In this document: piece by piece, positions 3,949 to 6,233 of the stretch
How the letters are laid out: every line of letters begins with the position of its first letter
How positions within the stretch are numbered: position 1 is the first letter of the stretch
Assembly: GCA_951406725.2 (NCBI GenBank)
Contig: OX597837.1
Coordinates: 14,694,001 to 14,758,000 of the forward strand
Length of the DNA: 64,000 bases
Reading direction: 5' to 3'
Source: Octopus vulgaris
Taxonomy: Eukaryota
Program-made: the position numbers

Positions 3949-6233
3949 GTTATTATTATTATTCAGTAGTTTTATTTTTATAACGTGCTTTCACTTCACT
4001 ACCGAGCGTAGCTCTGTGCGCCTTGGGTATGTGCTGTGATTTGTTGTGATGCTCTGATGGTTATTGTATGGAAAGTGTTCAACGTAGGATGTGTGCAGTG
4101 CCTAGTAGTGCAATTTTCTGTATGTTATATGTGTTTGTAAGTCCTGGTGTTTTTGTTATGTATTTGTCTGAATATTTTTTTATCATGCCTAATGCACCTA
4201 CTATGATATTAATTGTTTCTGTTTTTAGATTCCACATTCTGGTTACCTCTATTTCCAGGTCTTTGTATTTTGAAAGTTTCTCCATTTCTTTTAGAGAAAC
4301 GTTGTCATCTGCCGGTATTGATACATCAATTAGAAAGCATTTTTTTTTCATGATCTCTGACAACTATATCTGGTCTGTTAGCCTTAATTTCTCAATCTGT
4401 GTGTATCGGCATATCCCAGAGTATGGATGCTTTCTCGTTTTCTGTGACCTTTTCTGGTGTGTGCCTATACCATCTTTTTTCTGTTGTTATTCCATAATGT
4501 TGGCATAGCTTCCAGTGTATATAGCTCCCAACTCTGTCGTGTCTGTGAATATATTCCTTCTTAGCCAGGACTGGGCAGCCAGAGATAATATGATTTATTG
4601 TTTCTTGTCCATCTCCACATATTCTGCAGTTGTTATATTTCTTTTCATTACATGTTTTTGGTAATTTCTGGTGGGGAGGCTTTGGTCTTGTGCTGCAATT
4701 AAAAATCCCTCTGTCTCTGCTTTGAGTCCTGAGCTTCTCAACCATTGCTGGGATTTTTCTTTGTCTATTTCTTTGGCGTTTAGTTTAGTCCAGTATTTAC
4801 CATGAAGGGGCTTTTCCTGCCTTCGTTTTATCATGGTTCGTTGCTGTTCTATTTTTAGTTTGGATTTCGTTTGTTTTATAGCTTTTGTTGTTTCTTCATC
4901 TTCTTCTTCTTCTTCTTTGTGTTTATTAGGTGGTATGATTTCTTGTTTGTATTTGTCAGCTTCCTTAAATACTGAGAACAGTTTTTTGTTTTGCTCGTGT
5001 TTTGCCGCTATTTGTATCAGTTTTCCTTCCTTCTGAAGTAGATATTTTTGCAGTCCTATGGTGGTTATTTTATAGTAGTTTTCCAGCTGTATAAGGCCTC
5101 TACCACCTCCTATACGTTGTATATATAGTCTTTCTATATCAGATTTTGGGTGATGCATCCTAGATCCTGTCATTATTTTTCTTGTTTTCCTATCTATTTT
5201 GGTCAGTTCATTTAGTGTCCAGTTAAGGATATTGTAGCTGTAACTTATAACTGGGACAGCTAAAGTGTTAATACCTATTAGCTTGTTTTTAGCATTGAGC
5301 TCTGTTTTTAGTATTGATCTAACTCGTCTATAATATTCTTTTTTTATTTTTTATTTCATTTGTGTGTGTTGTGTCTTATCTAGTTCATGGATTCCTAAGT
5401 ATTTGTAAGTTTGGCTTTGGTCTAGTTCTTTTATTTCATTGGTTTCATCTAGTGTGATGTTGCTACTCTTAACTAGTTTTCCTCTTTTCAGGGTTACTTT
5501 GGCGCATTTTTCTAATCCAAATTTCATATCTATTTCTTTGGTAAATCCATGAACTGTCTTTTATAGTGTTTCCAGCTGTGTCATTTGCAGCGTATAGTTT
5601 TAGGTCATCCATATATAAAAGGTGGCTGATCGTTTTGCCGTAACATTTATATCCGCATCCAGTTCTATTTAGCATATCAGATAGAGGTGACAGTGCCAAG
5701 CAGAAAAGGAGTGGAGAGAGCGTGTCTCCCTGGAATATTCCTCTTCTAATGGGGATGGCTTTGGTTTTCATACGGCTACGCATTTCGCCCGACGTGCTAA
5801 CGTTTCTGCCAGCTCGCCGCCTATTGAAATATGGAACGCTTCGCGAATTTGCCTATCATCCTTGCGCAGGGGCCATGCTAATCTCCTCTGTATCGATCCA
5901 ATTTTAGAATATGTACTGCCGAAGCAAGTACTTATATATCTATATATATCTATCGGTATTGCTGAAATAGAAGGTCTCGAAATTCAATACCATATCAATC
6001 CGACTATACTGCCAATCTTCAGGTCCAGATTATATAAAACTATTTTACTATTTAAATCCTATACAAAGACATGACAACGAAAATTGTACAACTAGAAATC
6101 ATCGAAATAATTTTTCATTACTAAACAAGGAACAAAAATGAGGAATAAAGAAATAAGAAAAATAAGAAAAATAAATATTAACTTATCTTCTTTTTGGGAA
6201 ATTCTCTCGCGGCGAATTAATCATGGCTTCCAA

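What the first reader, a model, noticed from the sequence alone, without database searches (positions are those of the whole stretch)
3964..5931. Tripartite U6-SINE-Dong/R4 chimera: a fossil of serial template jumping by an RLE-class reverse transcriptase
Seen: on the minus strand a complete U6 (5931-5827) is followed by ~4 unassigned nt (CAAT), the intact 5' 54 nt of SINE A, a 2-nt AT overlap, and then a 5'-truncated Dong/R4-like RT-RLE fragment ending in (AAT)n, all co-oriented. Established: U6/L1 chimeras are well known in mammals, and the related R2 RT jumps end-to-end between RNA templates adding non-templated nucleotides. Inference: one TPRT event copied LINE RNA, switched into a SINE RNA, then jumped from its 5' end onto the U6 3' end. 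I am not aware of a described three-template U6 chimera made by a Dong/R4-clade enzyme.
Basis: partly seen in the sequence, partly recalled or inferred. Interest (0 to 1): 0.8.

Follow-up and report, generated by a model that had tools for sequence, protein, structure and literature searches.

The report
U6–SINE–Dong LINE composite retrocopy
A decayed copy of the U6 spliceosomal RNA sits fused head-to-tail to the first 53 bases of a common SINE and then to the back half of a Dong-type LINE, most likely a three-part retrocopy of a kind already known from mammals, a fungus and Drosophila R2.

Summary
The anatomy is real. On the minus strand there is a full-length U6 pseudogene (5931-5825), about 4 unassigned bases, the first 53 nt of a tRNA-like SINE (5822-5770), then directly a 5'-truncated RT/zinc-knuckle/restriction-like-endonuclease LINE (5771-3964) and a 268-bp (AAT)n/(GAT)n array. 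All parts are co-oriented, with no tail or target duplication between them.

The LINE is R2-superclade, has no APE domain, and targets (TAA)n as Dong does.

The U6/SINE joint lies at the SINE's natural 5' end, so it looks like an end-to-end reverse-transcriptase jump. The SINE/LINE joint is internal on both sides and is not a canonical jump. An internal switch, RNA ligation before reverse transcription, or a LINE insertion or deletion next to an older U6-SINE chimera all fit it.

No target duplication, empty site or second copy could be found, and the source genome was not searchable. One event versus two therefore stays open (about 0.45 versus 0.3).

Tripartite chimeras, U6-SINE chimeras, and R2 jumps to U12 and tRNA in vivo are already published. 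At most this is a new member of a known kind, and interest is modest.

The parts
5932..5948 (-). TA-rich 5' flank (…GATATATATAGATATATAA) directly upstream of U6. It is not a (TAA)n array.
   Evidence: Read. Similarity to the paralogous repeat at 40963-41284 ends at about 5944-5942.
5825..5931 (-). Full-length U6 snRNA pseudogene. The ACAGAGA box reads ACAGAGG, and the 3' end is TTT followed by CA instead of a T-run.
   Evidence: Rfam RF00026, 98.8 bits, E 2.1e-24, model 1-105/105. There are 4 internal mismatches at positions that the consensus shows in capitals.
5823..5826 (-). About 4 bases (CAAT) assignable neither to U6 nor to the SINE. They may be non-templated bases, or a mutated end of the U-tract plus the SINE start.
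5770..5822 (-). First 53 nt of a tRNA-like SINE ('SINE A'), starting at the SINE's natural 5' end. It lacks the B-box region and the SINE body and tail.
   Evidence: 90.6% identity over 53 nt to the copy at 47348-47296. Alignment with 5 other copies. 5 of 53 mismatches to their majority.
4064..5771 (-). 5'-truncated, decayed LINE ORF: the RT from just before the QGD motif through YMDD, then thumb/linker, a CCHC zinc knuckle, and a restriction-like endonuclease (RPD…D…K). There are several frameshifts and in-frame stops.
   Evidence: Pfam RVT_1 at E 3.3e-7. tblastn of 7 relatives; P0004 residues 655-1221 of 1221 map in 4 HSPs. R2 proteins are the only PDB relatives of full-length homologue P0004 (5 of 5). 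No APE domain in 3 of 3 homologues.
3964..4063 (-). LINE 3' untranslated end (…ACTACTGAA), intact.
   Evidence: Shared with the second copy at 36396-37520, which is 85.4% identical over 1161 columns and runs to the same 3' end.
3696..3963 (-). (AAT)n/(GAT)n/(AAC)n array: the LINE tail plus the target microsatellite.
   Evidence: TRF period 3, 89.3 copies. The same (AAT)n(GAT)n pattern follows the copy at 36396.

Best explanation
The locus is an old, decayed composite retrocopy that entered the genome as one piece through the target-primed reverse transcription machinery of a Dong-type, (TAA)n-specific, RLE-class LINE.

Proposed sequence of events (all inferred): reverse transcription was primed in a (TAA)n microsatellite on the (AAU)n tail of the LINE RNA and copied about 1.8 kb. 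It left the LINE RNA inside the RT-coding region and continued on the 5' part of a SINE RNA. That continuation was either an internal, microhomology-assisted switch or a copy of a SINE fragment already joined to the LINE RNA. Synthesis ran to the SINE's natural 5' end, added a few bases, jumped end-to-end onto the 3' end of U6 snRNA, and copied it to its first base. Attachment to the upstream DNA came with loss of the upstream part of the microsatellite.

Shown: the parts, their order, the clean joints, and the class and target preference of the LINE. Inferred: that all of this happened in one event, and how each joint was made.
For: - U6 is full length (model positions 1-105) with no tail of its own. 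Its 3' end lies 4 nt from the natural 5' end of the SINE. The chance expectation is about 4e-4 (hand calculation).
- All three parts are co-oriented. The only tail is the (AAT)n after the LINE.
- The rest of the SINE (position 55 to its end) is not downstream of the LINE. The nearest other SINE match is at 692-853, on the other strand, with its own head. A simple nested insertion is therefore excluded.
- The LINE/SINE breakpoint is sharp to within 0-3 nt.
- The LINE belongs to the enzyme class for which end-to-end jumping is documented. The only PDB relatives of full-length homologue P0004 are R2 proteins (5 of 5, E 1.6e-32 to 4.3e-18).
- R2 made U12- and tRNA-headed copies in vivo. The U12 case carries only the 5' 156 nt of U12 and a 48-bp deletion of upstream target (PMC3414825, section 8). 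Both oddities of this locus have a parallel there.
- Decay of the three parts is similar: 4 internal mismatches at conserved U6 positions, 5 of 53 in the SINE head, and 85.4% identity between two LINE copies.
Against: - No target-site duplication is recognisable.
- The 5' flank is TA-rich but is not (TAA)n, whereas both other 5'-truncated copies of the family read in the window have (TAA)n on both sides (2 of 2).
- The SINE piece is a 5' fragment entered at an internal position. A canonical end-to-end jump would start at the SINE's 3' end.
- The SINE family shows a ~15-bp target duplication at the one copy where it could be read (47350-47110). This points to a different, APE-type partner LINE, so a U6-SINE chimera could have been made earlier by that enzyme.
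- SINEs and LINEs are reported to have expanded together in Octopus vulgaris (PMC13282606, passages). If the window comes from such a genome, which no call showed, equal decay does not discriminate.
- This is a single locus with no second copy and no orthologue.
Confidence: 0.45

Rival explanations
1. Two or more DNA-level events. A bipartite U6-SINE chimera, made when the SINE was retrotransposed by its own partner LINE, already lay here. Later a Dong-type LINE inserted into a nearby (TAA)n array with a target deletion, or a later deletion removed the SINE from position 55 on, together with the intervening DNA and the LINE 5' part.
For: - U6-SINE chimeras are known (six U6-AnolisSINE2, and Mon-1 in platypus; PMC4476161, passages). 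That paper also says tripartite structures can arise from two independent events.
- The SINE/LINE joint is internal on both sides, as expected of a deletion or of microhomology end joining.
- The upstream (TAA)n is missing, whereas 2 of 2 other copies have it.
- SINE fragments are common in this window: 10 other stretches match, most of them partial. Dong-like fragments are dense on this strand.
Against: - It needs a rare U6-capped SINE to be hit, in the same orientation, by a LINE.
- No remnant of the SINE 3' part, its tail or a target duplication is left.
- The joint carries no filler.
Confidence: 0.3
2. This locus is a copy of an already composite master element: a U6-headed, SINE-headed non-autonomous family with a Dong 3' end. 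The chimera then arose elsewhere, and this is ordinary amplification.
For: - A repeat annotation of Octopus vulgaris lists one 'SINE/U' family (369 kb) and one 'U-L1' family (PMC13282606, Table 1 passage and supplement passage). This is context only, because the window's organism was not established.
- A U12-headed R2 form was the more abundant 5' junction type in D. ambigua and was suggested as a possible new subfamily (PMC3414825, section 8).
- snRNA-headed SINE families exist (SINEU; PMC4494074, passages).
Against: - There is only one U6 in the window.
- No ORF spanning either joint was found among database proteins. For the U6/SINE ORF, 0 of 120 listed hits share the SINE part. The region search found no candidate. 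0 of the 150 best representatives share the SINE-derived part. These are weak tests, since short spurious ORFs of this genome need not be in those libraries.
- The U6 promoter is external and the SINE piece lacks the B box, so the composite has no evident promoter.
Confidence: 0.1
3. The three RNAs were joined at the RNA level before reverse transcription. An RtcB-type ligase joined 2',3'-cyclic-phosphate ends to 5'-OH ends, and the chimeric RNA was then inserted by ordinary TPRT without any template jump.
For: - RtcB joins U6 to L1 and other RNAs, and this is proposed for most human U6/L1 pseudogenes (PMC6789731, abstract and sections 14, 18).
- It explains the internal breakpoints of the SINE/LINE joint as cleavage ends.
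Against: - The U6/SINE joint lies at the SINE's natural 5' end. In a Pol III transcript that end carries a triphosphate, and replacing 5'-OH by 5'-triphosphate dramatically reduced ligation (PMC6789731, section 14).
- The 4 extra bases are not expected from direct ligation, but they are typical of non-templated addition before a jump.
Confidence: 0.08
4. The adjacency is accidental or artefactual: independent insertions that happen to abut, or a mis-join in the assembly of a repeat-rich region.
For: The window is extremely repeat-rich with many microsatellites. It holds an assembly gap at 53207-53306.
Against: - Both joints are base-precise at natural or in-frame positions.
- The chance expectation for the U6/SINE joint is about 4e-4 (hand calculation).
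- The gap is 47 kb away.
Confidence: 0.05

Closest known systems
Tripartite chimeric retrogenes: M. grisea WEIRD-MgSINE-MGL and mouse B2-U6-L1 (Gogvadze et al. 2007, PMC2104539; abstract and sections 8 and 9 read)
   Same: Three co-oriented retrocopies are fused directly, with a 5'-truncated LINE and its tail at the 3' end and a full-length small RNA at the 5' end. A SINE and, in mouse, U6 are among the parts.
   Different: Those were made by APE-class LINEs (MGL, L1). The fungal and mouse cases are flanked by 14-16 bp direct repeats, and none is seen here. In M. grisea the middle SINE piece is a 3' fragment, whereas here it is the 5' 53 nt. The order in mouse is SINE-U6-LINE, not U6-SINE-LINE.
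R2 5' extensions by snRNA U12 and tRNA in Drosophila (Eickbush & Eickbush 2012, PMC3414825; passages and section 8 read)
   Same: An RLE-class enzyme is involved. A small nuclear RNA or tRNA copy sits at the 5' end. In the U12 case only the 5' part of U12 is present and upstream target is deleted.
   Different: Those jumps started from the 5' end of full-length R2 at the 28S site, and they are bipartite. Here the LINE is 5'-truncated and Dong-like at a microsatellite, the small RNA is U6, and there are three parts.
U6/L1 chimeric pseudogenes and U6 chimeras with L2, RTE, AnolisSINE2 and Mon-1 (Doucet et al. 2015, PMC4476161, passages; Moldovan et al. 2019, PMC6789731, abstract and sections 14 and 18)
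   Same: A full-length U6 ending in its U-tract is joined to the 5' end of a retrotransposed sequence, including SINEs.
   Different: All the LINE clades named there are APE-class. The mechanism is debated (template switching versus RtcB ligation). The extra bases and the natural SINE 5' end seen here fit a jump better.
SINEU, SINEs with snRNA-derived heads (Kojima 2015, PMC4494074; passages read)
   Same: An snRNA sequence sits at the 5' end of a non-autonomous retroelement, and template switching is proposed for its origin.
   Different: SINEU are amplified families with U1/U2 heads. Here a single copy with a U6 head was seen, with no evidence of amplification.

Membership tests
LINE-mediated chimeric retrocopy (U6/LINE type) | Full-length small RNA at the 5' end, ending at its natural 3' end without a tail of its own | tested here: met
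   U6 model positions 1-105 of 105. The U6 ends …ATATTT and is followed by 4 nt and then the SINE.
LINE-mediated chimeric retrocopy (U6/LINE type) | Parts co-oriented and fused directly, with no tail or target duplication between them | tested here: met
   The SINE/LINE breakpoint is defined to within 0-3 nt.
LINE-mediated chimeric retrocopy (U6/LINE type) | The 3' part is a 5'-truncated LINE with an intact 3' end and tail | tested here: met
   Residues from about 632-673 to the C-terminus of 7 relatives map here. The 3' end is shared with the copy at 36396. The array is at 3696-3963.
LINE-mediated chimeric retrocopy (U6/LINE type) | The whole composite is bracketed by one target signature (target-site duplication or target sequence on both sides) | tested here: not met
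   No direct repeat was seen. The 5' flank is TA-rich, not (TAA)n, whereas 2 of 2 other copies have (TAA)n on both sides. RLE elements can delete target DNA, so this weakens the single-event reading but does not exclude it.
LINE-mediated chimeric retrocopy (U6/LINE type) | An empty site lacking all parts at once | not testable with these tools
   The only paralogue of the 5' flank (40963-41284) ends at the same point and continues with unrelated sequence. No eukaryotic genome collection was open.
R4/Dong clade of RLE LINEs | Reverse transcriptase domain | tested here: met
   RVT_1 at E 3.3e-7, 30.7 bits against a cut-off of 29.6. The YMDD and QGD motifs are read.
R4/Dong clade of RLE LINEs | C-terminal CCHC knuckle plus restriction-like endonuclease, and no APE domain | tested here: met
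   The CCHC and RHD motifs align to an R2 protein (E 0.053, weak). Homologue P0004 aligns to R2 through RT, CCHC and the RPD…D…K region; 5 of 5 PDB hits are R2. 3 of 3 full-length homologues have no endonuclease/exonuclease/phosphatase family at E <= 0.01.
R4/Dong clade of RLE LINEs | Insertion into (TAA)n with an (AAT)n tail (stated for Dong of insects, molluscs and cnidarians in PMC7998251, passages) | tested here: met
   A tail array follows the chimera. The copies at 36396-37520 and 34587-35617 have TAA repeats on both sides. There are tandem fragments between TAA arrays at 8470-11750.
R4/Dong clade of RLE LINEs | Phylogenetic placement with reference Dong/R4 rather than R2, Hero, NeSL or CRE | not tested
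   No named Dong/R4 reference sequence was obtainable from the tools, and the database hits carry no clade names.
R4/Dong clade of RLE LINEs | N-terminal Myb/SANT-like domain | not testable with these tools
   This copy is 5'-truncated inside the RT.
Functional U6 snRNA gene | Invariant ACAGAGA box and conserved core | tested here: not met
   The box reads ACAGAGG. There are 4 internal mismatches at capital consensus positions. In the 21 alignments printed from the 120 listed U6-spanning ORFs, every one shows T where this copy has S, and M or T where it has R.
Functional U6 snRNA gene | T-run terminator and an upstream TATA box near -30 with a proximal element (positions recalled, not from a call) | tested here: not met
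   The 3' end is TTT then CA. The TA-rich stretch lies at -19 to -1 only. The upstream 330 bp is a repeat that occurs without U6 at 40963-41284.
Amplifying snRNA-headed SINE family (SINEU-like) | Several copies sharing the same joints | tested here: inconclusive
   There is one U6 in the window. No junction-spanning ORF was found in protein libraries. The source genome was not searchable.

The most novel reading that the evidence does not exclude
A Dong-clade, restriction-like-endonuclease LINE made this locus in a single TPRT event with two template switches. One switch entered a SINE RNA internally. The other was an end-to-end jump with non-templated bases onto U6. That would be the first natural three-template chimera for the RLE class and for a mollusc-like genome. 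It would also show how snRNA- or tRNA-headed elements with Dong tails can be born.
Probability: 0.35. Interest if true: 0.45.

Novelty: new member of a known kind. Interest (0 to 1): 0.3.

Why it matters
If it arose in one event, it extends in vivo template switching from R2 to the abundant microsatellite-targeting Dong/R4 LINEs, which until now was documented among RLE elements only for R2 at the rDNA. It would also give a natural example of an RLE enzyme chaining three RNAs, which bears on how composite SINEs arise and on the use of R2-like enzymes for gene insertion. As one decayed locus with no target signature, it is at present an anecdote. Its value lies in prompting a genome-wide census of U6 junctions.

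Tried and rejected
- Simple nested insertion (LINE inside a SINE): rejected. The SINE remainder is absent downstream.
- Live U6 gene with a SINE landing in its terminator: rejected. The core box is mutated, there is no T-run, and the upstream sequence is a repeat found elsewhere without U6.
- Empty-site test with the paralogous 5' flank (40963-41284): uninformative. Both copies end at the same base and the downstream sequences are unrelated.
- Search for other copies of the joints through spurious ORFs in protein libraries.
  - U6/SINE ORF: 464 hits at E <= 0.01, 120 listed, and 12 alignments reach the SINE part. Read by eye, none is similar there.
  - SINE/LINE ORF, region 1-40: no candidate.
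  - Representative library: 2280 hits at E <= 0.001. In the 150 best, at most 5 of 18 identities lie upstream of the LINE start.
  - All of these are weak negatives.
- tRNA-half-like cleavage as the source of the SINE fragment: the break at position 52-54 lies in the 3' strand of a long hairpin, 4-6 nt past its loop, not in the loop. ARAGORN finds no tRNA in the window. Dropped.
- Coincidence of the break with the start (position ~52) of a truncated SINE at 46022: with about 8 fragment starts in the window, the chance is roughly 20% (hand estimate). Not pursued.
- Naming the organism: no host gene was found. The likeness of the SINE to octopus SINEs is recalled, not tested.
- PMC11838501 was seen only in search listings, because two attempts to search its text failed on term format.
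- Literature searches found no paper describing a U6 chimera with a Dong/R4 LINE or in a cephalopod. The library lacks most subscription journals.
- Not seen: the additional files of PMC2104539 and PMC3414825.
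Full report
**What is in the sequence**

Read on the minus strand, the region holds four things in one orientation.

1. *A complete U6 snRNA copy, 5931-5825.* It is the only Rfam match at gathering score in the whole window: RF00026, 98.8 bits against a gathering score of 44, E 2.1e-24, model positions 1-105 of 105.
   - It is a pseudogene. The ACAGAGA box reads ACAGAGG. Three further positions that the family consensus shows in capitals are changed. 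The 3' end is TTT followed by CA rather than a T-run.
   - I printed 21 alignments from the 120 listed database ORFs that run across U6 genes. Each shows T where this copy has S, and M or T where it has R.
2. *Four bases (CAAT, 5826-5823)* that belong to neither neighbour.
3. *The first 53 nt of a ~240-nt tRNA-like SINE, 5822-5770.*
   - It is 90.6% identical to the copy at 47348-47296.
   - It starts where 4 other copies with readable 5' ends start.
   - It differs from the majority of five other copies at 5 of 53 positions; those copies differ from each other's majority at 5-12 of 53.
   - Ten other stretches in the window match the family.
4. *Directly after …GTAT, a LINE reading frame.*
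   - Seven full-length relatives of 1185-1242 aa align by tblastn from their residues about 632-673 to their C-termini, onto 5771/5768-4064.
   - The first aligned residues (MKTKAIPIRRGIFQGD) match I/V/L-K-T/S… in relatives.
   - Upstream of that, similarity is at chance level: at most 5 of 18 identities among the 150 best of 2280 library representatives.
   - The frame is broken. P0004 aligns in 4 separate HSPs, and there are in-frame stops.
   - The untranslated 3' end runs to about 3964. It is followed by a 268-bp period-3 array of (AAT)n, (GAT)n and (AAC)n, 3963-3696.

**What the LINE is**

- The fragment carries Pfam RVT_1 (E 3.3e-7).
- It has a C-x2-C-x8-H-x4-C knuckle followed by RHD, and an RPD…(I)D(V)…K motif.
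- Full-length relatives have RVT_1 and a sub-threshold zf-RVT. None of the 3 tested has an apurinic-type endonuclease family.
- The only solved structures related to relative P0004 at E <= 0.001 are R2 retrotransposon proteins: 5 of 5, E 1.6e-32 to 4.3e-18. The alignment runs through RT, knuckle and endonuclease.
- Two other 5'-truncated copies of the family lie in the window. One is at 36396-37520 (85.4% identical over 1161 columns). A more distant one is at 34587-35617. Both have TAA repeats on both sides.
- Further fragments sit between TAA arrays at 8470-11750, all on the minus strand.
- RT plus REL-endonuclease with a (TAA)n target is how the R4/Dong clade is described for insects, molluscs and cnidarians (PMC7998251, passages).
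- I could not place the element on a tree with reference Dong/R4 sequences. 'Dong-like' rests on architecture and target, not on phylogeny.

**The flanks**

- The 330 bp upstream of the composite (6274-5944) recurs at 40963-41284 with 84% identity.
- Both copies begin after a (TA)n run and end at the same base. The sequences beyond that point are unrelated. This gives no empty site.
- Between that repeat and U6 lie about 12-17 TA-rich bases ending in TAA.
- There is no (TAA)n array upstream of U6 and no recognisable direct repeat.
- Downstream of the tail array comes another common SINE-like repeat.
- The missing part of SINE A is not there. The nearest SINE A match, 692-853, is on the other strand and has its own head.

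**How the two joints read**

*U6/SINE joint.* This has the classical signature of a reverse transcriptase running off the 5' end of one RNA and resuming at the 3' end of another. The natural SINE 5' end, a few extra bases, the natural U6 3' end, and a U6 copied to its first base are all present. With about five SINE 5' ends of this family in 128,000 strand positions, a co-oriented one within 5 nt of the U6 end is expected with p of about 4e-4 (hand calculation).

Ligation of U6 to a 5'-OH RNA by RtcB is proposed for most human U6/L1 chimeras (PMC6789731, abstract and sections 14, 18). It fits this joint less well. A Pol III SINE transcript starts with a triphosphate, which dramatically reduced ligation in that study, and direct ligation does not predict extra bases.

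*SINE/LINE joint.* This one is different, because both partners are broken internally. A canonical end-to-end jump would have entered the SINE at its 3' end, as in the M. grisea tripartite chimera, whose middle piece is a 3' fragment of Mg-SINE (PMC2104539, section 8). Three routes remain:
- an internal, perhaps microhomology-assisted switch;
- ligation of cleaved RNA fragments before reverse transcription;
- a DNA-level event, meaning a LINE insertion with target deletion, or a later deletion, next to a pre-existing U6-SINE chimera.

For the first route there is an RLE-class precedent. The U12-headed R2 of Drosophila ambigua carries only the 5' 156 nt of U12 and comes with a 48-bp deletion of upstream target (PMC3414825, section 8). 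That parallels both the 5'-only SINE piece and the missing upstream (TAA)n here.

For the third route the following speak:
- U6-SINE chimeras exist elsewhere (PMC4476161, passages).
- That paper explicitly allows two events for tripartite structures.
- SINE A shows a ~15-bp target duplication at the one copy where it can be read. It therefore probably has a different partner LINE.
- Both SINE fragments and Dong-like fragments are dense in this window.

**Weighing**

Given a U6 pseudogene abutting a retroelement head, a jump is far more likely than chance. Given a U6-SINE chimera, I estimate two probabilities as both of the order of a per cent. One is that its SINE was later cut by a co-oriented LINE. 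The other is that it was part of a three-part cDNA from the start: 1 tripartite beside 33 bipartite chimeras in M. grisea (PMC2104539, abstract). Similar decay of the three parts fits one event, but it would also be seen if SINEs and LINEs expanded together.

My estimates:
- one composite insertion with at least the U6 joint made by a jump: 0.45
- the two-step origin: 0.30
- a copy of an already composite master: 0.10
- joining by RNA ligation alone: 0.08
- accident or mis-assembly: 0.05

**Comparison with what is known**

Already in print:
- Tripartite chimeras: human, mouse B2-U6-L1, and M. grisea WEIRD-MgSINE-MGL (PMC2104539).
- U6 chimeras with L1, L2 and RTE LINEs and with SINEs (PMC4476161).
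- In vivo jumps of an RLE enzyme onto snRNA U12 and tRNAs (PMC3414825).
- snRNA-headed SINE families (PMC4494074).

A repeat annotation of Octopus vulgaris lists Dong-R4 as the second most abundant LINE group (92.7 Mb, 51 families). It also lists one 'SINE/U' and one 'U-L1' family, without describing them (PMC13282606, Table 1 passage and supplement passage).

Six literature searches found no description of a U6 chimera with a Dong/R4 element or in a cephalopod. The library omits most subscription journals, and I did not see the additional files of the two key papers.

The locus is therefore at most a new member of a known kind.

**What stayed unchecked**

- The source genome could not be searched. 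Copy number, orthologous sites and read support are all open.
- The organism was not established by any search. The likeness of the SINE to octopus SINEs is my recollection.

Noticed in passing
window 46257-45838 (-): A full-length SINE A copy is followed without spacer by a second copy that starts at about position 52 (…AAAGAAATA|GGTATTTTGTCTG…). This is within 3 nt of where the SINE head of the chimera ends. It could be a SINE-to-SINE template jump, an insertion hot spot at GGTATTT, or coincidence (roughly 20% by hand estimate).
   Followed up: partly
window 8470-11750 (-) and 34587-37520 (-): There are clusters of 5'-truncated Dong-like LINE fragments, all on the minus strand, separated by long (TAA)n/(GAT)n arrays. 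They look like serial insertions into the tails of earlier copies.
   Followed up: partly
window 6274-5944 (-) and 40963-41284 (+): A ~330-bp repeat (84% identity) begins in both places after a (TA)n run and ends at the same base. It is an unclassified repeat or a small duplication. The chimera abuts its end.
   Followed up: partly
window 11195-11140 (-) and 35690-35640 (-): A shared 3' end (…GTCACTTTGATGGCATGCACT.CTCTCTCACTCAATA) is followed by TAA repeats in both places. This is probably another TAA-tailed retroelement family, distinct from the LINE studied here.
   Followed up: no
window 47350-47110 (-): This SINE A copy is flanked by a ~15-bp direct repeat (GGTATTTTATTTTAT). That suggests mobilisation by an APE-type LINE rather than by the Dong-like element.
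   Followed up: no
window 44141-44881 (-): A 246-aa open frame has the look of a mariner-type transposase fragment (judged from the translation only, not searched).
   Followed up: no
window 17400-20200: A roughly 2.8-kb array of GTC/ATC-rich short repeats gives very long open frames in several phases. It follows a SINE copy with an (ATT)n tail at 17174-17400.
   Followed up: no
window 3600-3440 (-), 8117-8268 (+), 48533-48684 (+) and others: A second abundant SINE-like repeat (starting …TTTACGTCCCCGTAGCCTAGCGGTTCAGC…) lies directly beyond the tail array of the chimera.
   Followed up: no
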